From positions 61,691-125,690 of IMG/VR virus record IMGVR_UViG_3300048837_000975: a DNA stretch of 64,000 nucleotides, one strand, 5' to 3'. Position 1 is the first letter of the stretch. The number at the start of each line of letters is the position of its first letter. The position numbers were made by a program, and so were the translations under genes. The notes under the pieces were generated by a model that saw only the letters and a list, made by a program, of their open reading frames with translations, did not search any database and had not been told where the DNA came from. This DNA comes from a virus. This document shows, piece by piece, positions 2,043-62,022 of this stretch.

Positions 2043-2674
2043 ATGGGCTAATCGAAAAACTGGTTGCCGAGCTTGGTGCGCTGGACCTGGACGCGCGTGT
2101 TGAGGCGCTGAACAAGATTCGTGAGGCGCTTCACGATGTGAGCCCGTTCAAGGAGGAACCGGTCGACTTCGTTCGATGGGTTAAGTCCGATACAGTTTCC
2201 GCGAACGCGTGGAATCCAAATCACGTCGCTCCGCCTGAGATGAAGCTGTTGGAGCTGTCGATTGTCGCTGATGGGTACACTCAACCAGTGGTAGGGTACG
2301 CCATTGAATCCGGCTACGAGGTTGTTGACGGCTTTCACAGAAATCTAGTGGCCAAAACTTCACCTCAAGTACGCGAACGAGTGAAGGGTTACCTTCCGAT
2401 AGTCCGGATCAAATCCGACCGAGAAGATAAGGGAGATCGGATGGCGGCCACAATACGCCATAACAGGGCTCGCGGAAAACATGAGGTAATGGCCATGTCA
2501 ACCATAGTAGCCGACCTAATCAAGCGCAACTGGTCAGAAAGTCGTGTTGCTACAGAGCTCGGAATGTCCGCTGATGAGGTTTTACGCTTGCGTCAGGTTA
2601 CAGGGCTAGCAGAACTGTTCGCGGATCGCGAGTTCTCAGAGGCTTGGGAGATCGTTGAGGACACTCCGGAATGA
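2039..2674 (+). CDS. ParB/Srx-like nuclease-domain protein (IbrB/YbdM-like)
   Basis: ANAWNPN, GYTQPVV, VVDGFHR and TIRHNRARGKH motifs; ATGA overlap with the IbrA-like gene. Confidence 0.85.
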   Translation: MNGLIEKLVAELGALDLDARVEALNKIREALHDVSPFKEEPVDFVRWVKSDTVSANAWNPNHVAPPEMKLLELSIVADGYTQPVVGYAIESGYEVVDGFHRNLVAKTSPQVRERVKGYLPIVRIKSDREDKGDRMAATIRHNRARGKHEVMAMSTIVADLIKRNWSESRVATELGMSADEVLRLRQVTGLAELFADREFSEAWEIVEDTPE

Positions 2675-3948
2675 AGCTTGAGCAGATGCTAGAAACGGAC
2701 GGCTGGAGCAAAAGTTCGCTGTACTCCGACGAATCAGAATACCCATGGTATGTGTATAGGCATATATGCGAGCCAACTGGCAAATGCTACGTTGGTTATT
2801 CGGACAAGCCGATCAGGCGGTGGTTAGAGCACGTCAGGAACTCAAGAAATCAAAACAGCGATTGCTATGATACGAAGCTAAGTCGAGCGATCAGAAAATA
2901 TGGAGAGACACAGTGGTCGCACGAGATAGTAGCAAAGACCGACTGCCAAGAGTCGGCGGCTACACTTGAGCTGAAGTACGTTTCCGTGTTCAATTCGTAC
3001 GAAGATGGTTACAACTCCACGCTGGGCGGAGACGGAGCATCTCAAAAAGAGCGACTTACTGAAGAGTTCATCCTCGATAGGATCCGTGACCACAAGAAGC
3101 TCACGGGAAAGTTTCCGACCACGTCGTCGCTTTCGGTTGCCGGCGGATACGAAGGAGACACCTGGAACGGATACAGCCTAGCACTGTCGCAGGGATTTAG
3201 AGGGTTGCCCGGCGGATCCTCTCTGGCAAAGCTTCTGGCAAAGCACTTTGATCATGCAACAAATATGACCAAAGTGGACCTGACCGAAGAGTTCATTCTT
3301 GAGAGAGCTACCGAGCACTTTAGAATCTTTTCAAGGTGGCCCCGCGGGTCTGATGGAGATGTTATAGGAGGACATCCCGGCGATACCTGGTCAGGGTATC
3401 ATAGTGCTTTGTCGAAAGGTCACAGAGGTCTTCGCGGAGGAACGTCACTGGGAGAATTCCTACTATCAAAGACAGGTTACAGGAACCACAAAAACAAGCA
3501 GAAGCTTACCGAGTCGTTCATTGCAGAAGCTGCAACAAAGTACAAGGATAAAAACGGACGATGGCCAACATCAAAATCTGGTGATGTAGAATTTGGTCAT
3601 CCAGGAGATACCTGGATTGGTTACGACGGTGCGCTTGAGAAGGGTCTCCGCGGCCTGCCAGGCGGAAGCTCACTAGCTAGACTGTTAGACGAGCAAACTG
3701 ATTATGTGAACCACAAGACGAAGCCGGATCTAACTGAAGAATTTATCCTGAACAGGGCAGCAGAATACCTGTCAGAAACAGGAAAGTTACCAACCAAGCA
3801 TTCCGGTAGCGTAAGAAACGGTCACCCTGGCGATACGTGGTGCGGATACGCAGCATCCCTGGAAAGGGGAACAAGAGGTCTTCCTGGCAAATCAACCTTG
3901 CCGAAGCTCCTCAAACCCCTGAAGCTCGTCAAGCCCACTCAAACTTGA
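2671..3948 (+). CDS. GIY-YIG-type endonuclease with four tandem ~75-aa C-terminal repeats
   Basis: YVY..CYVG..RWLEH..RAIRKYG..LE..GYN; repeats LTEEFIL..P..SG.V..G..GDTW.GY..L..G.RGLPGG.SL. Confidence 0.75.
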   Translation: MKLEQMLETDGWSKSSLYSDESEYPWYVYRHICEPTGKCYVGYSDKPIRRWLEHVRNSRNQNSDCYDTKLSRAIRKYGETQWSHEIVAKTDCQESAATLELKYVSVFNSYEDGYNSTLGGDGASQKERLTEEFILDRIRDHKKLTGKFPTTSSLSVAGGYEGDTWNGYSLALSQGFRGLPGGSSLAKLLAKHFDHATNMTKVDLTEEFILERATEHFRIFSRWPRGSDGDVIGGHPGDTWSGYHSALSKGHRGLRGGTSLGEFLLSKTGYRNHKNKQKLTESFIAEAATKYKDKNGRWPTSKSGDVEFGHPGDTWIGYDGALEKGLRGLPGGSSLARLLDEQTDYVNHKTKPDLTEEFILNRAAEYLSETGKLPTKHSGSVRNGHPGDTWCGYAASLERGTRGLPGKSTLPKLLKPLKLVKPTQT

Positions 3949-4529: not shown

Positions 4530-5201
4530 ATGAGCTACTATCCTACGAATGGTTTGGGCGCGTCCGCGTCTGTTTCGGCCTCTGCCTCGTTGAGCGTTGG
4601 TGCGAAGAAGCCGGCTCCGAAGAAGCCTGCGCCCAAGAAACCGGCTCCGAAGAAGCCTGGTCTCATCACTTCGTTCGCCGCGAAGATAGCTGCGGCTACG
4701 AAATCTGCCGCTGATGCTAAGAAAAAGGCACAGATTGAGGCCGCCCGCAAAGCAGCCTCAGCTGCCGCATCAAAGCCTGGCACACCGAAGGCTGCTTCTG
4801 TTCCCGCTGCGCGGCCAGCGCTGCTGAGCGCTGCTGGTCACGCTATCAAGGCTGCGTCTACGCCAGTTGCTCGCCCAGCGCTCCTGAGCGAGTCCGGCGC
4901 GAAGGCGAACGCCGATGTGATGAATCCGGAAAAGCAGAGCATTTCGACCGACGGAAAGTGCTACGCTGGTAAGGTTCTTTTTGAGAACCGTGGAATCAGC
5001 TTCTGTATGCCTCCCGCCGCGTACGCGCAGATGCAGCTCGAAAAGGCTGGCCCCGCCGTCGTCTCGGTGAAGCCCGAGGATGCCATTAATTCTGATCAGA
5101 AGACGGTGGAGGTGGAGCCAAAGAGTAACCTTCCTCTGAAGATTGCTGTCGGTGGGTTGATTGCTGCCGGAGCCATCACGCTGATTATTGTGGCAAGCTA
5201 A
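4530..5201 (+). CDS. Putative virion membrane protein (KKPAP repeats, C-terminal TM helix)
   Basis: Low-complexity K/A/P N-terminus and hydrophobic C-terminus. Confidence 0.6.
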   Translation: MSYYPTNGLGASASVSASASLSVGAKKPAPKKPAPKKPAPKKPGLITSFAAKIAAATKSAADAKKKAQIEAARKAASAAASKPGTPKAASVPAARPALLSAAGHAIKAASTPVARPALLSESGAKANADVMNPEKQSISTDGKCYAGKVLFENRGISFCMPPAAYAQMQLEKAGPAVVSVKPEDAINSDQKTVEVEPKSNLPLKIAVGGLIAAGAITLIIVAS

Positions 5202-6223
5202 TGTCGGTTCTTACATCAATAGCAAAAGCTCAAGCTGCCGCTGCCAAGGTTGTCGCAGAAGTGAAAGCTAAAGCGGCAGCTGACGCCAAGAAGAAGGCTG
5301 CGATTGAGGCTTCGCGTAAGGCATCATCCGAGATGGCTGCAAAGTCAGCCGCCTACGCCGCTCAGCAGGAGGCAAAGGCTCGTGCCGCTCAGCAAGCTGC
5401 GATCGAAGCCTCACGCCGAGCGTCTGCGGAGCAAGCCGCCAGATCTGCTGCGGCAGCTGCCCAGTCTGAAGCGAAAGCAAAGGCTGAACGCGCAGCTATG
5501 ATCGAGGCATCCCGGAGGGCGTCGGCTGAGATGGCTGCGAAGTCTGCTGCAGCGGCTGCTCAGGCCGAGGCTAAAGCCAAAGCGGAGCGCGCGGCGATGA
5601 TCGAAGCCTCGCGCAAAGCTTCGGCGGAGCAAGCTGCTAAGGCTGCTGCCTATGCTGCTCAACAGGAAGCTGCCGCCAAAGCTGCTGAAGCGAAGCGTCT
5701 AGCTGCGATCGAGGCGTCCCGCAGGGCTTCAGCCGAGATGGCGGCGAAGTCTGCAGCGTACGCTGCTCAACAAGAAGCTGCCGCCAAGGCTGCTCAACAG
5801 GAGGCTATCGAAGCTGGGCGGGCAAAGCTGTCTCAGCAGGCGTCTGCGGCTGCCGCTCAATCCGCGCAGATCGAAGCTGCTGCGAAGCAAACCGAGTCGC
5901 GAGTGTCGATGGAAGCTGCTCGCGCTGCTGACATGGCGGCTCGCGCTGCCGCTTCAGCAAAGACGGCTGAGGATGCTCGCGCAGCACAGATCGCACAGAC
6001 CATCGCTTCAGCAAAGGCTGCCGAAGCGAACCGCATCAAGCAAGAGACCGATTCCGTTCTGGTTCAACCGGAGAAGTCAGCCATAACCCCGATTGACATC
6101 AAGGAATTTGCTCTAAAGCAAGAACCGGTGCAGAATAGACCCAAGGTGTCTAAGGTGGCAGTCGCTGCGGGCGCCGGCATTCTGGGAATCGGTGTGGTTG
6201 CATATCTAGTGTATCGGAAATAA
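5201..6223 (+). CDS. Ala-rich coiled-coil protein with IEASR repeats and C-terminal TM anchor
   Basis: Five IEASR[KR]AS repeats; ends GILGIGVVAYLVYRK. Confidence 0.7.
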   Translation: MSVLTSIAKAQAAAAKVVAEVKAKAAADAKKKAAIEASRKASSEMAAKSAAYAAQQEAKARAAQQAAIEASRRASAEQAARSAAAAAQSEAKAKAERAAMIEASRRASAEMAAKSAAAAAQAEAKAKAERAAMIEASRKASAEQAAKAAAYAAQQEAAAKAAEAKRLAAIEASRRASAEMAAKSAAYAAQQEAAAKAAQQEAIEAGRAKLSQQASAAAAQSAQIEAAAKQTESRVSMEAARAADMAARAAASAKTAEDARAAQIAQTIASAKAAEANRIKQETDSVLVQPEKSAITPIDIKEFALKQEPVQNRPKVSKVAVAAGAGILGIGVVAYLVYRK

Positions 6224-15859: not shown

Positions 15860-16540
15860 GTGCCGACACCCTGCGGGAAAGCGTCGTACCAGATTCTGCC
15901 CAACTACCTTGTTGAGGTAAACGGGAAGGTTCCGACTTCTGACGGAATGCGCTCGAAGCTCGAGAAGCTTTGGAAAATGTATGGTCGCGAGGTCGCGGCC
16001 GCTTGCTCCAAGCACGGCATTCCTAAAGCGTGGTTCATGGGAATCATGCTGAAGGAGTCCGGTGGAGATGCGAACGCCTGTAGCCAGTGCAACGCACAGC
16101 TGTGTCCAGCCCTGTATAAGCACGGACTGTGCGCCACGCAGAAGTGTTGCGCATACGGTCTGATGCAGTTTATTGACAGCACAGCTCGCGACTACGGGAC
16201 AACTGGCCCGGCGTTGCTAGGAAACGCTAGCCTGGCGATCGAGATTGCTGCTAGGTTTATTGCAGACAAGCGTTCCGAATATGGAAACGATCTCGTAAAG
16301 ATCGCCGCAAGCTACAACTGTGGAAGCCCAAAGTGTACCGGAGAGGGAACCTTTGGGTACTGCGGACAGAACGACTACTCGATGGGCGTTTTGACCGCAT
16401 CAAATACCTTCCAGCTGATGGGGCTCGGATCTGACTTCAGCTTGAGCCTGGAGCCAATCTTCTGGTATGGCGCCGCCTTGGGCGCCTATCTCGCCTGGCG
16501 CAAAATGCGCAAAGCGCAGCGCCTTCCGGTACCGGTGTAA
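15860..16540 (+). CDS. Lytic transglycosylase (SLT), membrane-anchored
   Basis: ESGG catalytic Glu, GLMQF and ASYN motifs. Confidence 0.85.
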   Translation: MPTPCGKASYQILPNYLVEVNGKVPTSDGMRSKLEKLWKMYGREVAAACSKHGIPKAWFMGIMLKESGGDANACSQCNAQLCPALYKHGLCATQKCCAYGLMQFIDSTARDYGTTGPALLGNASLAIEIAARFIADKRSEYGNDLVKIAASYNCGSPKCTGEGTFGYCGQNDYSMGVLTASNTFQLMGLGSDFSLSLEPIFWYGAALGAYLAWRKMRKAQRLPVPV

Positions 16541-16545
16541 CTTAG

Positions 16546-17214
16546 ATGGCTGTTTCCGTAAAAGACGTTTGTGGCCAAGCTCACCTAAAGCGAGGTGTCT
16601 GGGAGAAGGTGTGCTTTTCTCAGCAGTCTGACGCTTTCAAGGTGAAGATGGTCCAGGTCGCCCAGAGGTTAGGAATGGATCCTAGCTGGCTGGCCGCCGC
16701 GATTGCGTTTGAGAGCGGATTCAACCCGCAGGCCGTTAACCCGATATCTGGAGCTACTGGTCTTATCCAATTTATGCCGAAGTCGACAGCTCCTCAGCTT
16801 GGAACCTCCCAGGCTGAATTGCTGAAGATGAGCGCCATTCAGCAGTTGGACTACGTTGAGAAGTACTTTACGAAGTTCCACGCGAACAGATCCTGGAAAG
16901 GTCCCCAGGATGTCTACTTTGCCATCTTCCTTCCAGTACTGATCGGAAAGGGACTGGATGACGTTGCGGCAAAGGCTGGCTCCCCGATCTATGATCAGAA
17001 TAGGGGTTTTGACAGATCTGGAAAGGGATACTTTACGGCAAGAGACGTGGCTCAGCCCATCCTCTCTATTCTTAGCTCTGCAGATAGCAAACCACTTGTG
17101 ATCGCGGCCGCGGCCGCAACAATCGGAGCGGCTGTCTGGTTTGGTGTCGCGGTTGGCGCATATCTCGCCTGGCGCAAGATGCGTAAAGCCCAGCGCCTTC
17201 CGGTGCCGGTGTAA
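16546..17214 (+). CDS. Lytic transglycosylase (SLT-like), membrane-anchored
   Basis: FESGF, ATGLIQFM and QLDYVEKYF motifs. Confidence 0.85.
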   Translation: MAVSVKDVCGQAHLKRGVWEKVCFSQQSDAFKVKMVQVAQRLGMDPSWLAAAIAFESGFNPQAVNPISGATGLIQFMPKSTAPQLGTSQAELLKMSAIQQLDYVEKYFTKFHANRSWKGPQDVYFAIFLPVLIGKGLDDVAAKAGSPIYDQNRGFDRSGKGYFTARDVAQPILSILSSADSKPLVIAAAAATIGAAVWFGVAVGAYLAWRKMRKAQRLPVPV

Positions 17215-17222
17215 CTTAGAAC

Positions 17223-17251: not shown

Positions 17252-17377
17252 CCTACGTGAAGCTGAGTGATTCCTGGTTTTGTGTTCTCGCCAATCCAAA
17301 AATGGCGAATGACCATGCCAGGTACTCTCTAAAGAGAGACGGCGGGCTCCGTGTCGTGCGGAGTTGTGTATTCAGAC

Positions 17378-19639
17378 ATGGCTGCTAAGCGAACAACCAA
17401 AGGTAAGGCGTTCAAGATCACCGAGAAGCAGGTGAAGGGCTACGGTTATGCGAAGCCTAATCCTGTTCCGGTTACCGCCATTGTCGCTGTGAACGGCAAA
17501 GGCGCGTACAAGAAGGCGCAGTCCGCTAAGTCTGTCATGTCCGGTCGCTCCAAGTCCGAAAGGCTCGGACGCGCACGGAAGTTGACTGCAAACACCCTAA
17601 AGGGTGAGAATGCAAAAGGTTCGGCCTCTTACAAGAGCAACAAGGAGATTGGTATGCGGAAAACGGTAGCGCGCGCTCGAGTAAGGGCCGCGCTGAAAAA
17701 GAACCCCAAGTCGCCCACTGCGGCGCAGCTGAAAGCTCGTCAAGCTTTCGCCAAGATGGTCAAGGCGAAGTCTGGTAAGCTCAAGAAGAACCCGGGCAAA
17801 ACTTCTGCGAAGAAAGCTCTGGCTGCTGCGCGCAAAGAATGGGCATCAAAGATGACCGCTAACAAGCGGCGTCGCGGTGGAAAGGCCAAGAAAAAGTGGG
17901 CCACTCCGCCAAGTTGGGCTCGCGGTCCTGCTGGCACCCAGGTGATGGGCGCCATTGGTCCTACCGGAACCAAGGTGATGGATGCTGCGAGGACTACGCG
18001 CATGGACGCCGTTGGCGCCCGTACGATGGTCTCCCCGGTCTACAGTGAAAGTTCTGCGCCCACTCGGCGCGCCGGTCGCAAGACCGCTTCTGTTCGTGTT
18101 GTGAAGCCTACTAAGAAAGCAAGAAAGGGATCTCGTAAAATGGCTCGAAAAGCGGCCAGCAAGCGCGCCAAGAAGGCCGCTTCGGTCAAGTCGGTTAAGG
18201 TTGTTCGTCGTCGTCGGAAGCGCGTTGCCAAGAAGGCGGCGAAGAGCGTCAAGTCTCGACGCACGCGCAAGGCTGCGAAGTCTCGCAAGCCCCGTCGGCG
18301 AGTGAAGCGCACCGCGAAGAAGGCAAAGCGCACCAAGAAGGCGAGCAAGCGTCGCACCAAGAAGAGCCGCAAGGCTGCCGCGAAGAAGGCTCCCCGCAAG
18401 GCTCGCAAGACGCGGAAGGCTCGCAAGAGCCGCAAGACGCGACGTATGCGCAAGAATGGTCTGACTCGTCGTCAGCGCGCGGCTCGCAAGGCCGCTGCCA
18501 CTCGCGCGGAGAAGAAGGCGCGACGTAGCGCTGCTGCGAAGAAGGCTGCTCGCAAGCGTTCACGCAAGTCTTCTGCGAAGAAATCGGTTCGTCGGGTGCG
18601 TCGTCGTCGGTCCGCTAAGCGGACGACCAAGCGATCCGCGAAGCGTGCTGCTCCGAAGAAGAAGGCTCGCAAGGCTCGCAAGTCGCGTCGCTCGTACAAG
18701 CGCAATGGCGTCGGTGCGAAGGTCAAGAGCTTCTTCAAGCGGAATGGCGTGATGGAGATCGTGAAGTTGGCGGGTCTCGTGACCGCTGGCGTCGTGACTC
18801 ACCGCGCTTTGACCGCTGGTCTGAACGCTCTCGTTCTCAACCCGCTGCTCAACCCCGCTCCGACGGTTGCTGAGCCTGCTGCGACCGGATTCGTTCCGGA
18901 AGCTGCGAAGCCGATCGTCAAGCTGCTCGCTTCGGCTGCTGTTGCCGCGGCTGGTACGCTCGCCGTCAAGGCTGTCTCGAAGGATGCTCAGGTCGTCAAC
19001 TCGGTTGCTGCCGGTATGATTGCCTCGGTTCTCCATCAGGCGGTTGTGACTGCGGTGGATATGGTCTCGCCCAAGGTTGCTGGCTACCTCGCTGGCGTCG
19101 AAGACGGTACCGCGGCTCGCCTCTCGGCGATGTACGGTTACGGCGCTGCGTCGCTGCAACCGAGCTATGCTCCGATCTCGGGCATGGGCGAGTACTTCGA
19201 GGGTACGGCGGGTCTCGGCGAGTACTTCGAGGGTACGGCGGGTCTCGGCGAGTACTTCGATAGCACCTCCGGTCTCGGCTCGTATGGCGGCAACCCCGAC
19301 ATCTTCGAGGCGGCGGCGGGCTACGGAATGCTCGGCGACAACTCGGACGGCTACACGAACAACATCAACCCCAATGACGACCTCGATCGCCAGCTGACGA
19401 TCGCGGAAGCGGCGGCTGGTGTTGGCGCGGCGCCCTATGAGGCTGCTGCTGGCATCGCGGAAGCGGCGGCGGGCTTCGGCTCGATCCAGTCGGTTCCCTC
19501 GGCGGACACCTGGGTTCCGGGTTCTGCTAACGGTCAGCTGTGGGCGGGTACGCGAGCTGTGAGCAATCCGCAGTCGGCAACCGCGATGGTTCCGGCCGGC
19601 GTGCTCGAGAGCGGCGGCGGCGCTGGCATCTTCGGCTGA
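17378..19639 (+). CDS. Large histone-H1/protamine-like core (DNA-condensing) protein with hydrophobic and acidic C-terminal half
   Basis: Extreme K/R/A/S content over ~450 aa, then hydrophobic helices and an acidic Gly-rich tail with GEYF repeats; strong codon bias. Confidence 0.7.
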   Translation: MAAKRTTKGKAFKITEKQVKGYGYAKPNPVPVTAIVAVNGKGAYKKAQSAKSVMSGRSKSERLGRARKLTANTLKGENAKGSASYKSNKEIGMRKTVARARVRAALKKNPKSPTAAQLKARQAFAKMVKAKSGKLKKNPGKTSAKKALAAARKEWASKMTANKRRRGGKAKKKWATPPSWARGPAGTQVMGAIGPTGTKVMDAARTTRMDAVGARTMVSPVYSESSAPTRRAGRKTASVRVVKPTKKARKGSRKMARKAASKRAKKAASVKSVKVVRRRRKRVAKKAAKSVKSRRTRKAAKSRKPRRRVKRTAKKAKRTKKASKRRTKKSRKAAAKKAPRKARKTRKARKSRKTRRMRKNGLTRRQRAARKAAATRAEKKARRSAAAKKAARKRSRKSSAKKSVRRVRRRRSAKRTTKRSAKRAAPKKKARKARKSRRSYKRNGVGAKVKSFFKRNGVMEIVKLAGLVTAGVVTHRALTAGLNALVLNPLLNPAPTVAEPAATGFVPEAAKPIVKLLASAAVAAAGTLAVKAVSKDAQVVNSVAAGMIASVLHQAVVTAVDMVSPKVAGYLAGVEDGTAARLSAMYGYGAASLQPSYAPISGMGEYFEGTAGLGEYFEGTAGLGEYFDSTSGLGSYGGNPDIFEAAAGYGMLGDNSDGYTNNINPNDDLDRQLTIAEAAAGVGAAPYEAAAGIAEAAAGFGSIQSVPSADTWVPGSANGQLWAGTRAVSNPQSATAMVPAGVLESGGGAGIFG
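19187..19260 (+). repeat. 30-nt tandem repeat (2.5 copies) encoding GEYFEGTAGL
   Basis: GGCGAGTACTTCGAGGGTACGGCGGGTCTC twice plus a partial copy. Confidence 0.9.
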
Positions 19640-19645
19640 TAGTTG

Positions 19646-19674
19646 TTGACAAATGATGTAGGTTCATGTAGTAG
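19646..19674 (+). promoter_or_regulatory. Sigma70-type promoter for the candidate capsid gene
   Basis: TTGACA-17 nt-TAGTAG, followed by a structured ~130-nt leader. Confidence 0.55.
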
Positions 19675-19813
19675 TATCTGAACACATCGCACCTTGCCCC
19701 AGAGACTTCCGGAAAACCGGGGTCCTGGGGTTAAGGTGTCAGAAGGGTCCGAGCGGGAACCAGGCCCGTAACTAACCAAGGTAGACCTTTCAGGAAAGTA
19801 AAAGCAAAAGACC

Positions 19814-20563
19814 ATGGCAAAAATTGTTTCTATTCGCGAGCGCGTTCATCAGCCCTTCTATGACCACCTGATCCGTACGGCTGGTATGGCGCAGGGCTCG
19901 GTCCAGGACACGAACGCTCTGTTCACCTCGAACGGCGCGCGCACCGAGGCGACCACGAACTTGATCAACGGCGCGACGCTGCCGTCTGACCAGTCGCACG
20001 TGACCCTCGTGCTTCGCGTTTTCACGTGGTTCCGTAACCCCGTTCTCCGCGTTGCGGGTGCGGATGCTGGTGAAGTGGCTGGCAACGGCGATTATGACGA
20101 TCTGGACGAGTTCCAGACCGGCGGGATCGCGGTCGGCAACGCTCCGGGTTCCACGAAGGACGTGTACCGTCTGGCGTGGCAGTCGAGCGAGCAGCTTCAC
20201 TGGACGTTCGGTGCGGGTCTGAAGCCCAGCATTGACAATATGCCTACTTGGTACTTCCCGACGGGTGGCGGCCTCCTGTCGGACCTCGCCGGCAGCACGG
20301 ACCTCGTGCACCTCAACAACGGTATGCCCTCGCATGAGAGCATTCTCCGCCTCGGCCGCGCGGTGCTCATCCCCCCGCGTCAGAACATTCTCTGCACTGC
20401 CAAGATTTTCAGCCTTCCCGACGCCGGGAACGCGCTGGCGTTCGGCACGGTGCAGGGCAGCCGCAACATGCTGTCGCTCCGCGACAACCTGAACGCGGTC
20501 GACCTCGTGCAGAAGTGCGTGAGCTTCTGTATCGATGGTCTGTTCAGCCGCGACGTTCAGTAA
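19814..20563 (+). CDS. Candidate major capsid protein (single-jelly-roll-like, 249 aa)
   Basis: Soluble beta-rich pattern (QPFYD..LF..TNL..LP..LRVF..LIPPRQ..IDG); strongly biased codon usage; own promoter and terminator; follows the core-protein gene. The fold is inferred. Confidence 0.55.
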   Translation: MAKIVSIRERVHQPFYDHLIRTAGMAQGSVQDTNALFTSNGARTEATTNLINGATLPSDQSHVTLVLRVFTWFRNPVLRVAGADAGEVAGNGDYDDLDEFQTGGIAVGNAPGSTKDVYRLAWQSSEQLHWTFGAGLKPSIDNMPTWYFPTGGGLLSDLAGSTDLVHLNNGMPSHESILRLGRAVLIPPRQNILCTAKIFSLPDAGNALAFGTVQGSRNMLSLRDNLNAVDLVQKCVSFCIDGLFSRDVQ

Positions 20564-20589
20564 CAGCGGATTCTGTCGAAATCGACAGG

Positions 20590-20627
20590 GCGAAGGGGCT
20601 CCGGGGTTGACTCGGGGCCCTTTTCGT
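20590..20627 (+). terminator. Intrinsic terminator after the candidate capsid gene
   Basis: GCGAAGGGGCTCCGGG-GTTGA-CTCGGGGCCCTTTTCGT hairpin with a U-run. Confidence 0.7.
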
Positions 20628-20634
20628 CTACAAT
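20607..20634 (+). promoter_or_regulatory. Sigma70-type promoter of the mini-array, embedded in the terminator
   Basis: TTGACT-16 nt-TACAAT; predicted start ~20641, at the first repeat. Confidence 0.7.
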
Positions 20635-20641
20635 GTAGAGC

Positions 20642-20881
20642 ATTGCGCTCTGAGGAGCGACATACAGAAGCTGACGCACCGTCGCAAATTGCGCTCTGAG
20701 GAGCGACATGCTGGGCTTCAGACCTGCGGCACCTATCATTCCACAAATTGCGCTCTGAGGAGCGACTAGAAGGGCTGATGAACGCGCTCGCGAATAGAAT
20801 TGCGCTCTGAGGAGCGACAGCCGCGACGTTCAGTAACAGCGGATTTGCGCTCTGAGGAGCGACACTTGGTACTTCCCTACA
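20642..20881 (+). CRISPR. Mini-array of five 5'-truncated CasPhi repeats; all spacers match the adjacent gene 19814-20563
   Basis: Core TTGCGCTCTGAGGAGCGAC at 20642-61, 20685-707, 20743-66, 20798-818 and 20845-63; spacer matches verified by eye. Confidence 0.95.
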
Positions 20882-20913
20882 CACTGTAATCTGGAGTGGT
20901 GCAAAAAAAGTTC

Positions 20914-20942
20914 TTGCTCCGCTTCGCATGGGCTGCTACAAC
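20914..20942 (+). promoter_or_regulatory. Putative cas12j promoter
   Basis: TTGCTC-17 nt-TACAAC with extended TG; GGAG just before ATG 20952. Confidence 0.45.
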
Positions 20943-20951
20943 GCTGGAGCG

Positions 20952-23255
20952 ATGAAGAAAACGACAAATCTGAAGATTGAAAATGGCGTATCGCCGCTTG
21001 CGCAGATGACTCGCAAGCATTTTCCGGGAAAAAGGTTTCCAGCTAGCGTCTTGAAGCCAGCTGGCAGGAAGCTCAAGGATCACGGTGAGCAAGCTGCGAT
21101 CGAATTTCTGCAGGCCAACATTGATGTTCCTTACGGGAACTTTAAGGCGCCGGCAAAGTGTAATGTTGTCGCTACTAGTCGCCCGTATAGCGAGTGGCCG
21201 CTTTACAAGTTCTCATCTGAGCTTCAGAAAGCAGTCTTTGCACTCTCAAAGGATAGGCTGATGGAGATTGAACCATCAAAGCAATCCGACGCAGAGAACG
21301 AGAAGTTCCTGTCAGCGATCGGAGTCAGCGCGGATCCGTCAATTAACGTGACGTTCGTTAGCGCGTGCATTTCAAAGGCCGTGCATACGTACCTTGGAAT
21401 GGAGAAGAAGGCTGAGAACAAGTACCAGAAGAAGTTGTCAAGGTGTCGCTCAGAGAGCGAGCTAAGTAGCGTCACACCAGAAAACGTATACAATGAAGAC
21501 GGAACGCTTTCTGACGGGTGGCGGCCCGGTTTCAATGCTAACCTATACGGAAACTCAAATAGCAAGCTGAGTCTATTCGGATCCGTTAGGTCGCACAACA
21601 AGGTGGAGCTGCCTGTGTGGCTTTCTGAATACCGAGAGTGGGCAAAGAATCGCTCAAAGGATTCAAAGATCAATGAGTACAGCGCAAGCGTTGATCGACT
21701 GTCGATTCCGGAGGGCCAGCCCGGTCACGTTCCGCTTTGGCAAAGAGACTCGTCTAAGCGAACTAAGCCGGGCGGTGGAGAGATCAAAGAAGGGGTTCGT
21801 CGTCATCGATGGTACTCGAACCGAAACAACGCGAACCGAAGGAACAAGGTTGACCAGGCAACCAGGTTGGCCGCATCGGCTATGGAGATGGTTCTTGCAA
21901 TCGCATTCTTCGGAGAGGACTGGGTTCTCTTTGACATTCGCGGACTACTTAGGAACGCTCGCTACCGCAAGCTTGTGAACAAGAATACGACATATGGCGA
22001 TCTGATGGAGTTGTTTACGGCAGATCCTGTTCTTGATACAAAGCGAGGAATCATCACCGCATCGTATAAGGACACGACTCTCAAGATCGTTCAGCAGACA
22101 ATAGTCGGCGAAAAGAAGTCCAAATCCAAGATTCTGGAAGAGGTCCAGAAGAACGGGCCGGTTGCTGTTGTATCGATCGATCTCGGTGTAAATGAGCCCG
22201 TGTCGTACCGTGTGTCGAGGGTTGATGTAGCTGGAGGGAACGCCATCGTTGCCGAGCTTGCCGCTGAAGGATTCATGAGCAACGAACTAAAGAAAGAGAT
22301 TTCTAGTTATCGGGAAAAGTCGGACGAGCTTAACGGCGATCTTCGTGAGAAGGCAGTCCTTTCCCTCTCGGACGAAATGCAGGCAGAGATTCGCCGAGTC
22401 GACGCAACGAATGCCAGTGACTCGAAGAACAGAATCTGCGAAATGCTCAGCCTGGATCCGGAAAGCGTTGACTGGTCAAAGATGACCACGCAAACCAGGT
22501 TCATTTTCAACAAGCACGTTGAGAACGGCGGGGATCCTAACGTCCTTCTGTTCACTCCGACCGAGGACAAAAAGAACAAAGGTAAGAAGAGCAAGAATAA
22601 GAAGGGCGAGTACGGAGACAGGGTTCCGCACTCCGACAGTGGGATCGCTCGGAACATTGCCAGAGAGAAGCTCAGTATGGAGACTTGCGAGGCTCTCAAC
22701 AAAGCAAAACGGGAACTGCAACAAGAAGATCCTCGGTATGGTAAGCTTTCCAAGCGAAAGCAGGAGTTCGCTCGACGCGTAGTGAACGGAGTGGTTGTGC
22801 GCGCACAGGAAGTCACTGGGTGTGATAACGTTGTGCTGGTCGTTGAGAAGCTCAACGTATCAAACAAGATGTTTAGCGGAAGCGGAAAACGAGCTCCAGG
22901 ATGGGACAACTTCTTCGTTCACAAGAAAGAGAACCGCTGGTTTATTCAGGCGCTACACAAGGCGTTCACCGACAAGGCTGCGCACAAGGGCATTCCTGTA
23001 ATCGAAATTAAACCGAGCTATACAAGTCAGACTTGCCCAGCGTGCGAGCATTGTGACAAGGACAACCGAGACGGGGTTCACTTCTGCTGCACCAGGTGCG
23101 GGTTCACCGGTCACGCGGACCTCAACGTAGCGTGCTTCAACATTGAGAAAGTTGCTCTTACTGGAGAAGCTATGAGCGGACCCGGCAGCGCAACTGCGCA
23201 CAAAAAGACTCGCAAACCAAAGAAGGCTATGGTAGAGTCAGATAAAGCCGCGTAA
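20952..23255 (+). CDS. cas12j: CasPhi (Cas12j) type V effector, ~767 aa
   Basis: CasPhi hallmark motifs KHFPG.RF, NF.APAKC.VV..SR, DIRGLLRNAR, FTADPVLD and GSGKR.PGWDNFF..KKENRWFIQ.LHKAF; RuvC D (SIDLG), E (VEKL) and D (HADLN); Zn finger; flanked by arrays. Confidence 0.95.
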   Translation: MKKTTNLKIENGVSPLAQMTRKHFPGKRFPASVLKPAGRKLKDHGEQAAIEFLQANIDVPYGNFKAPAKCNVVATSRPYSEWPLYKFSSELQKAVFALSKDRLMEIEPSKQSDAENEKFLSAIGVSADPSINVTFVSACISKAVHTYLGMEKKAENKYQKKLSRCRSESELSSVTPENVYNEDGTLSDGWRPGFNANLYGNSNSKLSLFGSVRSHNKVELPVWLSEYREWAKNRSKDSKINEYSASVDRLSIPEGQPGHVPLWQRDSSKRTKPGGGEIKEGVRRHRWYSNRNNANRRNKVDQATRLAASAMEMVLAIAFFGEDWVLFDIRGLLRNARYRKLVNKNTTYGDLMELFTADPVLDTKRGIITASYKDTTLKIVQQTIVGEKKSKSKILEEVQKNGPVAVVSIDLGVNEPVSYRVSRVDVAGGNAIVAELAAEGFMSNELKKEISSYREKSDELNGDLREKAVLSLSDEMQAEIRRVDATNASDSKNRICEMLSLDPESVDWSKMTTQTRFIFNKHVENGGDPNVLLFTPTEDKKNKGKKSKNKKGEYGDRVPHSDSGIARNIAREKLSMETCEALNKAKRELQQEDPRYGKLSKRKQEFARRVVNGVVVRAQEVTGCDNVVLVVEKLNVSNKMFSGSGKRAPGWDNFFVHKKENRWFIQALHKAFTDKAAHKGIPVIEIKPSYTSQTCPACEHCDKDNRDGVHFCCTRCGFTGHADLNVACFNIEKVALTGEAMSGPGSATAHKKTRKPKKAMVESDKAA

Positions 23256-23443
23256 TGATCTAAAACGCCGAGATCCTCTGAACCGGAGGCGCTCGCAAAC
23301 AGAAATTGACAACAAGTTCGACAGGATGCCATCTGAGCATAGAATGGCACCAGGAGGCACGAGCGCGAGATCGCTCCCGGATCGGAAAGGCTCTCGCAAA
23401 CCGTTCGGTAACCGCGCGAATCTACAGGGTCTCACGGAGACCC

Positions 23444-23972
23444 ATAGAAACCCCTACAAATTGCGCTCTGAGGAGCGACGACCGCCAAAGCAGCCAAGGT
23501 GCCAGCGCTACCGACATAGAAACCCCTACAAATTGCGCTCTGAGGAGCGACTGACCACGGGATCGCTCGCCGTCGTGAACGGAATGATCATAGAAACCCC
23601 TACAAATTGCGCTCTGAGGAGCGACCCAGTGTTCGTGACCTCTACCGCCGTCTACTTTTGGCATAGAAACCCCTACAAATTGCGCTCTGAGGAGCGACTT
23701 GGTGCCAGCCTCACCACGACCGCCGCATCAGGCGCGATAGAAACCCCTACAAATTGCGCTCTGAGGAGCGACTGAGTCCACCCAATCACTATCGAGCATA
23801 TGCCACTCCTATAGAAACCCCTACAAATTGCGCTCTGAGGAGCGACCGCGACGAACGCAAAGAGCTTGTGGCTGCGGCCCGCCATAGAAACCCCTACATA
23901 TTGCGCTCTGAGGAGCGACTTAGCTTCGCCGAGGATCTAGAAACCCCTACAAATTGCGCTCTGAGGAGCGAC
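23444..23972 (+). CRISPR. Canonical CasPhi array: 8 repeats (36 nt), 7 spacers
   Basis: Repeat ATAGAAACCCCTACAAATTGCGCTCTGAGGAGCGAC; six spacers of 36-38 nt and a last one of ~18 nt; 3' hairpin CGCTC-TGAG-GAGCG. Confidence 0.98.
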
Positions 23973-24098
23973 ACTCAAACGGAACGAACGTCAGGGGAGA
24001 CGCCACAAAACGTAAAGCTTGATTGAATTCCTGCGTCATGGTAACTTGCTATGTGTTGCAGCCCGCCATGTTGGCGGAGACCCAATCATAGGAGAACC

Positions 24099-25031
24099 AT
24101 GGCAAATATCGATCTGACTCAGCTCATTCAATCCGCTAATTTTGCGAGCGCGGCCGCGCGTAAGCACGAGCAGCAAATCTCTGGCATCGGAATGCGCGTT
24201 GCGGAGATTCAGAAGGAGTTCGGCAACCTTCGTGATGCTCTTTCGCGCGTTGAGATCTCGTCCCGCATGGGCGATCCCGGAATTCAGCGTGTTGAGAACA
24301 TTCCCGGCCGACGAGTGCCCTTCGATCTGCTCGTAGACATTCCGATCGCTGCGGGCAGCACCGCTGTTCAGCAGGGCACTATCACGATCAGCCAAGAAGG
24401 CCCGTTCGTGGCGGTCTCGCGCTTCGCTACGCTGCTTTCTGCGTACGAGTACACCTACACGGAGCCCGGCACTTCTAGCACGACGCGTTACCAAGGCCGC
24501 AGCTACGGCCGGTACCGCCCGATTCACTCTGCGTGGGATCTGAACGATGGCAATCCGATTGCGACTACGACTCTGACGACTCCGCCCACCTTCCCTGGTA
24601 CCGGTGCGCCTCTGATCGTGTCTCCGAGCAACGCGAGCAGCTTCCGCACGATGGAGGGAGACTTCCGAATCAAGTTCGAGAACGCCGGTTCCAGCTTCCC
24701 CAGAAGCAACCTCGAAGTTCCGAGCCCGTTCTGGACGAAGAGCATCAACGAGGCATTCGATCTTGGGGCTCTGGATGTGTTTGAGCGCGGCGAGGTGCTG
24801 AGCTTCCGTGTTCTTCCGCTTCATGCCGCAAACGCCTCCTATGGCAACCTCGCTGGCTACGGAACGGGCGACTATCCGTACATTGAGTCGCAGTGGGATG
24901 CTGTCGAAGGTATTGACGATACGGTCGACGCGGAAGCCACGGTGGATCCGATTACGCGTTACCCGAACTCGATTCTGACTATTGGCTTCCACGGATACCG
25001 GATCATCCAACAGCCGGGCGTCGTCTACTAA
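24099..25031 (+). CDS. Candidate second capsid/structural protein (N-terminal coil plus beta-rich domain)
   Basis: AGGAG RBS; TTGATT-17-TAACTT upstream; beta-rich with a terminal IGFHGY strand; biased codons. Confidence 0.5.
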   Translation: MANIDLTQLIQSANFASAAARKHEQQISGIGMRVAEIQKEFGNLRDALSRVEISSRMGDPGIQRVENIPGRRVPFDLLVDIPIAAGSTAVQQGTITISQEGPFVAVSRFATLLSAYEYTYTEPGTSSTTRYQGRSYGRYRPIHSAWDLNDGNPIATTTLTTPPTFPGTGAPLIVSPSNASSFRTMEGDFRIKFENAGSSFPRSNLEVPSPFWTKSINEAFDLGALDVFERGEVLSFRVLPLHAANASYGNLAGYGTGDYPYIESQWDAVEGIDDTVDAEATVDPITRYPNSILTIGFHGYRIIQQPGVVY

Positions 25032-25039: not shown

Positions 25040-25870
25040 ATGAGCGATTTCGCGAGGCAATTTAGCCAAGCGTTCGCGCAGACCAACCCGCACATCGGTG
25101 GCAATCGTTCTGCCAGTGTGCGGGTTGGACAACCGGCGCCAATTCCCGAGTCCGTAAGGGGTCGGGGGTGTAGCGACGCTGCGCGCACTGTTGTGGCTGG
25201 CGGAGCAATGTCACAGTTGCTTCTGCACCCTACGTTCGTTCCGTTTGAGCTTACGTTCCGTAAGCTACCCGACGACGGCGTTTATACCGCTAACAGAATA
25301 AACCAATACGCATTTGAGCTTGGATCCTTCACGGTTCCCACTTCGATGTCATTGGCTGTCGCGGAGTACTCGTTTCGACCTTACCGCATCTCTGGGGCTG
25401 CTCCTGGAGAAGCTGTTCCGCTCGAGACAGGTAGATTGTCGTTGGAGCTTGCGTACGACCTGAACATTGACCAGTACCGTAAGGGAAACATCAAGACACA
25501 GGTTGTCCCGCGGCTACCTTCGCCTGCACAGAACGCGTTTGCTGGTAATCCTTCTGGCGGATCTGTGTTTCAGCAGTCGGTTGGCGGGCTGGCTGGATCG
25601 GCGTCGCTGGCGAGCTTCAACTCTGACGTTACATCCGGGCTCACCAACTATGGTGACGCTCTCATCATTCAGGGAACAAAGACTCAGCAGGGTCCTGAGA
25701 AGTTCCCGTTCACCTATTACGTTAGGTCCAACCAGGCTGTTCAGATGCGAGTGATCGTGTTTGGGCAGATCACGATTCCTCTTGCGTTCTTCGAGGGCGT
25801 GTTGAGCGGGTATCTGATGCCGCAGAACACTCTTGAGTCGATGCTTGACGGCGTGAGTCCCTGTCAGTGA
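25040..25870 (+). CDS. Candidate minor capsid/structural protein
   Basis: AAGGAG RBS; beta-rich with a terminal LSGYL strand. Confidence 0.45.
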   Translation: MSDFARQFSQAFAQTNPHIGGNRSASVRVGQPAPIPESVRGRGCSDAARTVVAGGAMSQLLLHPTFVPFELTFRKLPDDGVYTANRINQYAFELGSFTVPTSMSLAVAEYSFRPYRISGAAPGEAVPLETGRLSLELAYDLNIDQYRKGNIKTQVVPRLPSPAQNAFAGNPSGGSVFQQSVGGLAGSASLASFNSDVTSGLTNYGDALIIQGTKTQQGPEKFPFTYYVRSNQAVQMRVIVFGQITIPLAFFEGVLSGYLMPQNTLESMLDGVSPCQ

Positions 25871-59551: not shown

Positions 59552-59572
59552 CTTTCAAACCTTTCTTTCAAC

Positions 59573-59624
59573 GGACTCGTCAGCGACGGCCTTACCGTCG
59601 GACCGGGCGAACCCGGTTTCGTCC
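59573..59624 (-). ncRNA. Hammerhead ribozyme, type II (copy 1)
   Basis: GGAC-GAAA-CCGGG TTCG CCCGG-TC-CGACGG TAAGG CCGTCG-CTGACGA-GTCC. Confidence 0.92.
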
Positions 59625-60509: not shown

Positions 60510-60530
60510 CCTCGCTTGAATTCTTTCAAC

Positions 60531-60582
60531 GGACTCGTCAGCGCACGCCTTACGTGCGGACCGGGTTTCCCCGGTTTCGTCC
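60531..60582 (-). ncRNA. Hammerhead ribozyme, type II (copy 2)
   Basis: GGAC-GAAA-CCGGG GAAA CCCGG-TC-CGCACG TAAGG CGTGCG-CTGACGA-GTCC. Confidence 0.92.
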
Positions 60583-60613
60583 TATCTACCATGCTAAGAG
60601 AAGCTACGCAACA

Positions 60614-61945: not shown

Positions 61946-61962
61946 TAAACTCTCCCTTCAAT

Positions 61963-62014
61963 GGACTCATCAGCGCTGGCTTCACCAGCGGACCGGGTTT
62001 CCCCGGTTTCGTCC
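61963..62014 (-). ncRNA. Hammerhead ribozyme, type II (copy 3)
   Basis: GGAC-GAAA-CCGGG GAAA CCCGG-TC-CGCTGG TGAAG CCAGCG-CTGATGA-GTCC. Confidence 0.92.
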
Positions 62015-62022
62015 TTTTTACT

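What the first reader, a model, noticed from the sequence alone, without database searches (positions are those of the whole stretch)
19814..20881. CasPhi mini-array whose five spacers all target the phage's own adjacent candidate capsid gene
Seen: five truncated repeats lie between gene 19814-20563 and cas12j, and every spacer matches that gene. S1 (20662-79) is the reverse complement of 20515-32, 17/18, 5' flank TCG. S2 (20708-27) is the reverse complement of 20213-32, 19/20, flank TCA. S3 (20767-99) is the reverse complement of 19828-60, 33/33, flank TCA. S4 (20819-44) equals 20546-71, 26/26, flank TTC, and spans the stop codon and 3' UTR. S5 (20864-81) matches 20246-63, 16/18, flank CCT. 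Known: CasPhi-2 uses a 5'-TBN PAM, which fits four of the five; the RuvC D/E/D residues here look intact. Inference: this is a dedicated guide cassette against the capsid locus, separate from the immune array. It could be RNA-guided repression of capsid expression (lifestyle control), exclusion of sibling phages, or a drive system. Each option needs a way to avoid self-cleavage at the perfect S3 and S4 sites.
Basis: partly seen in the sequence, partly recalled or inferred. Interest (0 to 1): 0.96.

Follow-up and report, generated by a model that had tools for sequence, protein, structure and literature searches.

The report
Phage Cas12j guides aimed at neighbouring genes
An uncultured 126-kb phage carries a small CRISPR-Cas12j cassette whose five minimal guide RNAs all match the conserved gene next to it, in a genome slot where a relative carries a homing endonuclease, so it may be an RNA-guided version of a selfish homing nuclease used against sibling phages.

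Summary
Five exact copies of the 19-nt 3' part of the CRISPR repeat lie between gene 19814-20563 and cas12j. Each following guide matches that gene from guide position 1. Within the 17-nt hybrid that Cas12j3 can form (PMC8298400), S2, S3 and S4 match perfectly and S1 and S5 have one mismatch.

New evidence:
- The 3.4-kb cassette is missing from 10 IMG/VR relatives and from a 96%-identical sibling.
- One relative has a free-standing HNH endonuclease gene in the same slot.
- The sequence after the last main-array repeat matches the gene on the other flank 18/18.
- Two natural protospacers of main-array spacers carry a 5'-TCA flank, as S2 and S3 do.
- All 4 guide/self mismatches are synonymous third-codon changes.
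- One relative diverges exactly at the S4 site, and the sibling has a lone repeat in the target gene's leader.

Best reading (about 0.45): an RNA-guided counterpart of a free-standing homing endonuclease, or an anti-sibling weapon. How the carrier avoids cutting itself is unexplained. "Capsid" is unproven. First-stage readers noted this stretch again in another window; a follow-up is withheld.

The parts
19636..19667 (+). Promoter-like stretch ahead of the target gene (TTGACA at 19636-41, then TAGTAGTAT)
   Evidence: Read by eye. The consensus scan did not call it. The sibling's 30-nt insertion with a lone repeat core sits just after it, at 19665-70.
19814..20563 (+). Target gene: 249-aa conserved phage protein of unknown role
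   Evidence: 671 homologs at E<=1e-10. No named family. Weak jelly-roll-like model.
19828..19860 (-). Protospacer of S3 (33/33); flank TCA, the reverse complement of 19861-63
   Evidence: Covers codons 5-16 (VSIRERVHQPFY), a highly conserved motif.
20213..20232 (-). Protospacer of S2 (17/17, then 19/20); flank TCA
   Evidence: The mismatch at guide position 18 is synonymous.
20246..20263 (+). Protospacer of S5 (14/14, then 16/18); flank CCT
   Evidence: Both mismatches are synonymous. The flank is the invariant Pro144 codon.
20515..20532 (-). Protospacer of S1 (17/18); flank TCG
   Evidence: The mismatch at guide position 12 is synonymous, GTG versus GTC.
20546..20572 (+). Protospacer of S4 (27/27); flank TTC; spans the last 5 codons, the stop codon and 9 nt beyond
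   Evidence: The X3 relative diverges exactly from 20546 onward.
20603..20621 (+). Terminator-like hairpin of the target gene; its loop holds the -35 box of the mini-array promoter
20607..20634 (+). Promoter-like TTGACT-16-TACAAT, which would start transcription at the first handle
   Evidence: 10 of 12 matches. The sibling's similarity ends at 20627, so the -10 box belongs to the insertion.
20643..20863 (+). Mini-array: five 19-nt minimal handles (starts 20643, 20689, 20748, 20800, 20845) with guides S1-S4 between them
   Evidence: The handle keeps positions -1 to -19, including the C-1, A-2, G-17 and U-18 that Cas12j3 contacts.
20864..20881 (+). Guide S5, which runs on into the cas12j leader
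20928..23255 (+). cas12j (CasPhi), 775 aa
   Evidence: PDB 7odf Cas12j3 E 8e-133 and 7lys CasPhi-2 E 4e-124. Pfam Cas12f1-like TNB domain. GC 50-53% against 59-65% in the left flank.
23318..23345 (+). Promoter-like TCGACA-16-TAGAAT ahead of the main array
23444..23972 (+). Main CRISPR array: 8 full 36-nt repeats, spacers of 36-38 nt and one of 17 nt
   Evidence: Spacers M2 and M6 have near-perfect protospacers with a TCA flank in runs X1/X2.
23973..23991 (+). Terminal guide (M8) after the last repeat
   Evidence: Positions 2-19 equal the reverse complement of 25232-25249, 18/18.
25232..25249 (-). Self-match of M8 inside gene 25040-25870; the carrier's flank is TAA and guide position 1 mismatches
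24099..25031 (+). Conserved gene that directly follows the target gene in relatives lacking the cassette

Best explanation
The stretch from about 20628 to about 24040 is a compact, horizontally acquired Cas12j cassette. It sits between two conserved genes of a ~126-kb phage. It probably acts like a free-standing homing endonuclease whose specificity comes from RNA.

Proposed mechanism:
1. A promoter, partly hidden in the target gene's terminator, transcribes five minimal crRNAs (19-nt handle plus guide) and cas12j as one unit.
2. Cas12j loads these guides, and also the guide after the last main-array repeat.
3. It cuts the conserved genes on both sides of the slot in closely related phages that lack the cassette.
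4. This excludes those phages. When the break is repaired from the carrier genome during co-infection, the cassette is copied into them.

Shown: the anatomy, the matches, the insertion status, the HNH gene in the same slot of a relative, and the TCA flanks of natural targets.
Inferred: expression, loading, cleavage and biased inheritance.
Unexplained: how the carrier tolerates three guides (S2, S3, S4) that match its own copy perfectly next to a suitable flank.
For: 1. Real guides. 5 of 5 mini-array guides match the neighbouring gene from position 1, against 0 of 7 internal main-array spacers.

2. Competent parts. The 19-nt handle keeps every handle position that the Cas12j3 structure paper names (C-1, A-2, G-17, U-18). 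The Cas12j3 hybrid is limited to 17 nt, and more than 12 nt activates cutting (PMC8298400, passages read). Within 17 nt the guides match 16, 17, 17, 17 and 16 positions. The catalytic D/E/D residues and the zinc cysteines are conserved.

3. Insertion. None of the 10 IMG/VR relatives has cas12j within 6 kb, and in them the target gene is followed by the 24099 homolog. A 96%-identical sibling in runs X1/X2 runs through 20627 and then differs. The cassette's GC content is lower than that of its left flank.

4. Same slot as a homing nuclease. In 1 of the 10 relatives (L005), the same slot holds a 461-aa free-standing HNH endonuclease gene (phrog_3377 E 2e-55, phrog_374 E 2e-53).

5. Both flanks are targeted. 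The terminal guide M8 matches the gene on the right flank 18/18. There the carrier looks immune, with flank TAA and a mismatch at position 1.

6. PAM. Natural protospacers of M2 and M6 in X1/X2 (2 mismatches each) are both preceded by TCA, the flank of S2 and S3.

7. Guides look copied from kin alleles. All 4 of 4 guide/self mismatches are synonymous third-codon changes. That is 4 differences in 116 nt, similar to the sibling's 38 in 963.

8. Possible counter-measures in relatives. The X3 relative is 96% identical over 20154-20545 and diverges exactly at the S4 flank/protospacer border. Its next 18 nt still read S-R-D-V-Q-stop, but all six codons differ. The X1/X2 sibling has a 30-nt insertion carrying the repeat core in the leader of the target gene.

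9. A pool of targets exists. The 90% cluster of the target protein has 8 members, 6 of them full-length, and the 7 besides the carrier's own are 95-100% identical to it.
Against: 1. The carrier's own copy holds perfect 17-nt matches with TCA, TCA and TTC flanks for S2, S3 and S4. A homing element or weapon should spare its carrier, and no immunity mechanism was found.

2. This is one genome. No second cas12j locus could be examined (searches found none; two searches were closed).

3. There is no expression or cleavage data, and no RNA run holds the stretch.

4. The guide sites are not significantly more conserved than random 17-nt windows across distant relatives (P = 0.17; S1 falls in the 7th percentile).

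5. Against the 10 IMG/VR relatives the guides have 1-7 mismatches, so only very close kin could be hit.

6. The sibling's nucleotides at S1, S2, S4, S5 and M8 were not visible (one search lists differences only up to 20125). Whether any phage matches the guides better than the carrier does is therefore untested.

7. S5 has a CCT flank, fixed by an invariant proline codon, which does not fit TBN.

8. The evidence from public runs comes from contigs, not reads.
Confidence: 0.45

Rival explanations
1. Self-regulation. The minimal guides direct Cas12j to the phage's own neighbouring gene to repress or time its expression (CRISPRi-like), as crRNA-like regulatory RNAs do in host CRISPR loci.
For: - The best available match of every guide is the carrier's own allele.
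- Repeat-like units upstream of cas12a that regulate genes are widespread (bioRxiv 10.1101/2023.03.03.530964, passages read).
- The mini-array promoter is interlocked with the target gene's terminator, and the array forms the cas12j leader.
- In the sibling, a repeat core sits in the same gene's leader, a second link between Cas12j RNA elements and this gene.
Against: - Known regulatory guides pair only partially and aim at promoters. Here the matches are 17-33 nt, lie in the ORF body, and S4 covers the stop codon.
- The nuclease residues are intact, and hybrids longer than 12 nt activate Cas12j3.
- Relatives manage without the cassette.
- All four mismatches are synonymous changes, which fits copying from another allele.
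- The sixth guide on the other flank and the HNH gene in the same slot are left unexplained.
Confidence: 0.2
2. The self-match comes from a mosaic. Either the assembler joined the abundant cassette-less sibling allele to a cassette-bearing strain, or a recent natural recombinant joined them. On this view the true long-term carrier has an immune allele. This is compatible with the anti-sibling reading and removes the self-cleavage puzzle.
For: - Several alleles at least 95% identical to the carrier's coexist in nature, and X1/X2 hold several variants just upstream.
- Identity drops across the slot. Contigs of 66,161 and 15,725 nt are on record both for target alleles at 95-96% and for members of the 82% cluster of the downstream gene.
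- No public run holds the junction.
Against: - The contig is long (125,690 nt), which argues against a strain mixture at similar abundance.
- The exact Cas12j and the exact target protein are each recorded on two JGI contigs, the longest 126,880 nt in both cases.
- S4 lies only 56 nt from the cassette border, so single reads should span both.
Confidence: 0.15
3. By-product without function. Lone repeats and short guide-like copies arise from repeat-associated recombination or insertion scars that sample nearby DNA, and they are tolerated because the crRNAs are not made or not used.
For:
- The sibling's 30-nt insertion is flanked by a 6-nt duplication.
- Both flanking genes are sampled.
Against: - The copies lie 250-900 nt from their sources, three of the five are inverted, and none abuts its source. 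The scar model therefore fails here.
- All five handles are exact.
- Every match is in register with guide position 1.
- The matched lengths (17-33 nt) are all at least the usable hybrid length.
- A promoter is placed to start transcription at the first handle.
Confidence: 0.1
4. Programmed self-cleavage or R-loop formation. Cas12j deliberately nicks or opens the phage's own DNA at this gene to start recombination-dependent replication or gene conversion.
For: There are three perfect self-targets with suitable flanks. S3 and S4 face outward at the two ends of the ORF.
Against: There is no precedent and no supporting feature, and relatives replicate without the cassette.
Confidence: 0.05

Closest known systems
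Free-standing homing endonucleases of phages (T4 SegB, MobE; ICP1 nucleases). Sources: PMC2330249, PMC2790892 and PMC10055350, seen only as search listing and abstracts.
   Same: A nuclease gene is inserted between conserved genes and is absent from close relatives. Its specificity is for the flanking conserved gene. A true HNH gene occupies the same slot in relative L005. Identity drops across the slot.
   Different: Specificity comes from six RNA guides rather than from the protein. The carrier's own sites are not all resistant. No transfer has been shown.
Virus-borne mini-CRISPR arrays used in conflicts between related viruses (PMC6858448, abstract; review PMC11656645, passages)
   Same: A short array in a virus genome whose guides match the genes of close kin.
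   Different: Those arrays use full host-type repeats and the host's Cas proteins, and the carrier lacks the matching protospacer. Here the repeats are trimmed to the handle, the phage brings its own Cas12j, and the carrier itself matches.
crRNA-like regulatory RNAs and mini-arrays in CRISPR loci, including repeat-like units upstream of cas12a (bioRxiv 10.1101/2023.03.03.530964, passages; 10.1101/2024.10.29.618823, abstract)
   Same: Degenerate or partial repeats next to the effector gene, with guides that hit a nearby gene of the same genome.
   Different: Those pair only partially and target promoters of cas or toxin genes. Here pairing is full-length and falls inside the ORF of a non-cas gene, with five guides.
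Self-targeting mini-array of Chiyouvirus, a Bathyarchaeia virus (PMC10541130, passages)
   Same: A viral mini-array with 100% matches to the virus's own genome; its authors call the role unclear.
   Different: That case has two spacers, host-type full repeats and no effector of its own. No adjacency to the target is reported in the passages I read.
TnpB/IscB guide-RNA-directed retention of IS200/IS605 transposons (recalled from Meers et al. 2023, not read; review PMC13565253 seen in listing only)
   Same: A RuvC nuclease related to Cas12 uses a guide matching DNA beside its own insertion site to cut element-free copies, so that repair restores the element.
   Different: There the element's presence breaks the target, which gives self-immunity. 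Here the targets lie 56-800 nt (left) and about 1.2 kb (right) from the slot and stay intact in the carrier.
Solitary repeat units / RNA anti-CRISPRs (PMC10651486, abstract)
   Same: The sibling's lone repeat core in the target gene's leader, and the carrier's own promoter-driven lone repeat 8 kb before the window start, have this form.
   Different: Racrs are described against host systems. Here the system that would be inhibited belongs to a rival phage. Nothing was tested.

Membership tests
Type V-J CRISPR-Cas (Cas12j/CasPhi) | Effector homologous to Cas12j with RuvC D/E/D residues and a zinc ribbon | tested here: met
   7odf E 8e-133 and 7lys E 4e-124. D418 aligns with Cas12j3 D413. D418, E640, D731 and C703/706/721/724 are invariant in 6 homologs. 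The catalytic residues D413, E618 and D708 are named in PMC8298400.
Type V-J CRISPR-Cas (Cas12j/CasPhi) | Adjacent CRISPR array with ~36-nt repeats ending in a short hairpin, guide 3' of the handle | tested here: met
   8 repeats of 36 nt at 23444-23972. The handle positions C-1, A-2, G-17 and U-18 fit the Cas12j3 description.
Type V-J CRISPR-Cas (Cas12j/CasPhi) | T-rich 5' PAM | tested here: met
   2 of 2 natural protospacers found (M2, M6) are preceded by TCA. No functional test was done.
Virus-borne mini-arrays for interviral conflict | Guides match related viruses | tested here: inconclusive
   Over the S3 site the 96% sibling shows only one listed difference, at 19837, guide position 24. 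The other sites were not visible. Distant relatives have 1-7 mismatches.
Virus-borne mini-arrays for interviral conflict | The carrier lacks the matching protospacer | tested here: not met
   S2, S3 and S4 match the carrier 17/17 next to TCA, TCA and TTC. This is met only for M8, and partly for S1 and S5.
crRNA-like regulatory RNAs (autoregulatory mini-arrays) | Partial, seed-only complementarity that allows binding without cutting | tested here: not met
   Matches of 17-33 nt. The Cas12j3 hybrid limit is 17 nt and activation needs more than 12 nt.
crRNA-like regulatory RNAs (autoregulatory mini-arrays) | The target is a promoter of a cas or toxin gene | tested here: not met
   All five targets lie in the ORF or 3' end of a non-cas gene.
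Free-standing homing endonuclease (works-like comparison) | Nuclease gene present or absent between conserved genes among close relatives | tested here: met
   An HNH gene occupies the same slot in L005.
Free-standing homing endonuclease (works-like comparison) | Cuts a site in the flanking gene of relatives that lack it, while the carrier's site is resistant | tested here: inconclusive
   The guides specify sites in both flanking genes. The carrier looks resistant at M8, but not at S2-S4.
Free-standing homing endonuclease (works-like comparison) | Biased inheritance of the nuclease gene in mixed infection | not testable with these tools
   The phage is uncultured and there are no co-infection data.
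   No Pfam, PHROG or PDB sequence match. Foldseek found nothing at E<=0.001. The best VIA match is Z 6.4 to an SPV1 virion (capsid reconstruction) chain, tied with tail-fibre, cement and unrelated beta-sandwich proteins.

The most novel reading that the evidence does not exclude
A natural RNA-guided gene drive in a virus. On this reading, a Cas12j cassette spreads through a phage population by cutting the conserved genes on both sides of its own insertion slot in cassette-free siblings, and is then copied into the break. The siblings answer with synonymous recoding of the target and with a decoy repeat expressed from the attacked gene's leader.
Probability: 0.3. Interest if true: 0.9.

Novelty: new variant of a known kind. 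Interest (0 to 1): 0.78.

Why it matters
If this reading is right, it links two fields that are usually treated apart: CRISPR-Cas and homing endonucleases. It would show that a phage can use a Cas12-type nuclease, itself descended from transposon nucleases, as a selfish or competitive element whose specificity is written in a few short guides next to the gene.

It would also show that five crRNAs can be packed into 240 nt with 19-nt handles, which is of practical interest for compact multiplex guide arrays.

Finally, it poses a clear problem: how a virus lives with perfect self-targets. Only one earlier unexplained viral case turned up in my searches (Chiyouvirus, PMC10541130). My five literature searches found no description of a Cas12j mini-array aimed at its own flanking genes.

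Tried and rejected
Searches for other loci that found nothing:
- The repeat core has 0 hits in IMG/VR.
- The metagenome scan gave 2 hits. L019 is a chance match inside a coding region. L020 is a lone full-length-like repeat on a 1,096-nt contig.
- No cas12j locus was found in IMG/VR, in GenBank phages or in GTDB genomes.
- The word-based protein search gave only 5 distant homologs, 29-36% identical.
- The target gene has no hit in GenBank phages.

Main-array spacers against five relatives' whole records gave only weak matches (best E 0.018), none reaching 62% identity on re-check apart from the 17-nt M7 at 13/17. I rejected these as targets.

Public runs: no RNA holder is listed, and the four DNA holders have small shares of 0.05-0.10. 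The cassette is uncovered in all four, which proves nothing.

Test for guides at conserved sites: not significant (P = 0.17).

The idea that the non-matching tails of S1 and S2 encode a diverged allele was rejected. None of the 120 homologs aligned has those peptides.

The insertion-scar model was rejected for this locus (see the rivals).

Rfam found nothing relevant over 19300-24300: one hit below threshold, L31 leader, E 0.037.

Folding the whole mini-array transcript was uninformative, because the palindromic handles pair with each other (z = -1.2).

The protein atlas gave only unnamed viral clusters.

The target gene and gene 25040-25870 are not detectably paralogous.

The M8 site is too diverged in relatives to test the idea of a TTG codon.
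Full report
WHAT IS THERE

The window is the second half of a 125,690-bp IMG/VR virus record (linear; CheckV estimate 78% complete).

Gene 20928-23255 encodes a 775-aa Cas12j. It matches the solved Cas12j3 at E 8e-133 and CasPhi-2 at E 4e-124. Its D418 aligns with the Cas12j3 catalytic residue D413. D418, E640, D731 and four zinc-binding cysteines are invariant among six homologs. The catalytic residues are named in PMC8298400.

Downstream lies a normal array of eight 36-nt repeats at 23444-23972.

Upstream, between the end of gene 19814-20563 and cas12j, the last 19 nt of the repeat occur five more times, all exact. In total there are 13 exact copies in the window, against 0.02 expected by chance.

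The Cas12j3 structure paper describes handle contacts at C-1, A-2, G-17 and U-18 (passages). The 19-nt unit keeps exactly these positions. The repeats are therefore trimmed to the structural handle, not decayed.

THE MATCHES

All five guides match gene 19814-20563 or its first 9 nt of 3' UTR, and each match starts at guide position 1:
- S1: 17/18.
- S2: 17/17, then 19/20.
- S3: 33/33.
- S4: 27/27.
- S5: 14/14, then 16/18.

The 5' flanks are TCG, TCA, TCA, TTC and CCT. These are also the best matches in the whole genome. None of the seven internal main-array spacers has a comparable self-match.

Cas12j3 limits the guide-DNA hybrid to 17 nt and is activated by hybrids longer than 12 nt. Within 17 nt the carrier's own gene matches S2, S3 and S4 perfectly and S1 and S5 with one mismatch.

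A sixth self-match exists. The sequence after the last main-array repeat equals the reverse complement of 25232-25249, 18/18, inside the second gene to the right of the cassette. There the carrier has a TAA flank and a mismatch at guide position 1.

EXPRESSION LAYOUT (INFERRED)

A TTGACT-16-TACAAT promoter-like site at 20607-34 would start transcription at the first handle. Its -35 box lies in the loop of the target gene's terminator-like hairpin. No terminator-like site on the + strand was called between the mini-array and cas12j, so the mini-array probably forms the leader of the cas12j message. A second promoter-like site precedes the main array. Promoter-like sites are not enriched overall (3 found against 1.9 expected), so only their placement is suggestive.

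THE CASSETTE IS AN INSERTION IN A HOMING-NUCLEASE SLOT

The target protein belongs to a large unnamed family of phage proteins: 671 homologs at E<=1e-10. Ten IMG/VR loci at 55-72% identity were fetched. None has cas12j within 6 kb. In all ten the target gene is followed by the homolog of 24099-25031, directly in nine.

Contigs of public runs X1 and X2 hold a sibling that is 96% identical over 19665-20627 (38-39 differences in 963 nt). It then runs into unrelated sequence, which sets the left border of the insertion at 20627/20628. The cas12j gene has 50-53% GC, against 59-65% for the left flank.

In one of the ten relatives, L005, the same slot holds a 461-aa free-standing HNH endonuclease gene (phrog_3377 E 2e-55). 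The carrier also has a GIY-YIG homing-endonuclease-like gene elsewhere, at 2671-3948.

Identity falls across the slot. The 90% cluster of the target protein has eight members, and the seven besides the carrier's own are 95-100% identical to it. The nearest non-self version of the downstream gene, in contrast, is only 82% identical. Two contig lengths, 66,161 and 15,725 nt, are on record for both a 95-96% target allele and a member of that 82% cluster. This is suggestive only, because the downstream gene also diverges faster in distant relatives.

SIGNS OF CONFLICT

Natural protospacers of main-array spacers M2 and M6, with two mismatches each, occur on separate short contigs in X1/X2. Both are preceded by TCA. 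S2 and S3 therefore carry the same flank as real targets.

All four guide/self mismatches inside the matched parts are synonymous third-codon changes. By my arithmetic the chance of four third positions is about 0.012. This fits guides copied from, or tuned to, a slightly different allele of the same gene. The guides differ from the carrier at 4 of 116 matched nucleotides, about the same divergence as the sibling shows.

In run X3 a relative is 96% identical over 20154-20545 and stops matching exactly at the border between the S4 flank and its protospacer. Its next 18 nt still encode S-R-D-V-Q-stop, but all six codons differ (translated by hand). That is either local recoding or a recombination breakpoint at the S4 site. 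X3 also holds a contig with the exact full repeat flanked by other sequence.

The X1/X2 sibling has a 30-nt insertion that carries the repeat core just after the promoter-like region of the target gene. In form it is a solitary repeat unit of the kind described as RNA anti-CRISPRs (PMC10651486, abstract).

The carrier has its own promoter-driven lone repeat 8 kb before the window start. Its guide has no self-match.

WHAT SPEAKS AGAINST THIS READING

- The carrier is not immune at S2, S3 and S4, and I found no mechanism for tolerance.
- Only one genome shows the arrangement, and no other cas12j locus could be fetched.
- The guide sites are not significantly more conserved than random windows (P = 0.17).
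- Only very close kin could be hit, since distant relatives have 1-7 mismatches.
- The sibling's nucleotides at most sites were not shown, so no allele is yet known that fits the guides better than the carrier does.
- The run evidence is from contigs, and the cassette junction itself is unconfirmed by independent data.

THE TARGET GENE

"Capsid" is not supported. There is no family or PDB sequence match. The AlphaFold model has mean pLDDT 67. Foldseek found nothing at E<=0.001. The best structural match, Z 6.4 to an archaeal virus (SPV1) virion (capsid reconstruction) chain, is tied with tail-fibre, cement and unrelated beta-sandwich proteins. The gene is a conserved, probably structural, beta-sandwich protein of unknown role.

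COMPARISON WITH KNOWN SYSTEMS

The effector and the main array are ordinary type V-J. The mini-array differs from each of its nearest precedents:
- Viral mini-arrays for interviral conflict use full host-type repeats and host Cas proteins, and the carrier lacks the target (PMC11656645).
- crRNA-like regulators pair partially and aim at promoters.
- Transposon TnpB homing gains self-immunity because the insertion breaks the target (recalled, not read).

The closest functional analogy is a free-standing phage homing endonuclease. One earlier viral mini-array with perfect self-matches has been reported, with its role called unclear (Chiyouvirus, PMC10541130). Phage spacers against structural genes of other phages are known (PMC7162821).

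VERDICT

The feature is real and unusual. I file it as a new variant of virus-borne CRISPR used between mobile elements. A homing-like, anti-sibling role is the best-supported reading at about 0.45. Self-regulation stands at about 0.2 and a mosaic origin of the self-match at about 0.15. First-stage readers of this scan noted the same stretch, the lone repeat, the hidden promoter and the terminal guide in another reading of this genome. I checked those points myself.

Noticed in passing
G000:C1:53603-53621 (8.07 kb before the window start): A solitary copy of the repeat core with one mismatch sits behind a TTGACT...TATCCA promoter-like site, in a divergent intergenic region next to a lipoprotein-like gene. 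Its 40-nt downstream 'guide' has no match in the genome.
   Followed up: partly
window 19680-19800; L001-L009 about 5850-6000: The 5' leader of the target gene contains a hairpin with a GGAAAACC-type loop whose stem changes in a compensating way among relatives, followed by a GTTGAAAG...CGAGAGGAAC stretch. There is no Rfam match at E<=1. It may be an undescribed structured leader.
   Followed up: partly
L005:6813-8198: A free-standing HNH endonuclease gene with two tandem HNH-type modules lies between the target-gene homolog and the next conserved gene of a 131-kb relative.
   Followed up: yes
window 23920-23953: Main-array spacer 7 is only 17 nt long, and the repeats around it carry single changes (ACATA and CTAGAAA variants). 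It has no match anywhere in the genome.
   Followed up: partly
window 59562-63918: Five copies of a ~66-nt element at intervals of 0.3-1.4 kb. On the minus strand it reads like a hammerhead core (CUGAUGAG/CUGACGAG ... CGAAAC) by eye, but there is no Rfam match at gathering score.
   Followed up: partly
window 2671-3948: A 425-aa protein with an N-terminal GIY-YIG homing-endonuclease match (phrog_314 E 2.5e-18), next to a PAPS-reductase-like gene at 837-2042.
   Followed up: no
L020:140-204: A 1,096-nt metagenome contig carries one lone, nearly full-length repeat with the exact 19-nt core and a different 5' half, followed by an unrelated sequence and a gene.
   Followed up: no
window 5283-5795 and 19179-19284: In-frame tandem repeats: about five 99- to 108-nt units inside ORF 5201-6223, and three 30-nt units near the end of the 762-aa lysine-rich protein 17351-19639.
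   Followed up: no
window 16461-16546 and 17135-17220: Two neighbouring SLT-lysozyme genes (15860-16540 and 16546-17214) share an 86-nt, 87%-identical 3' end, which suggests a tandem duplication.
   Followed up: no
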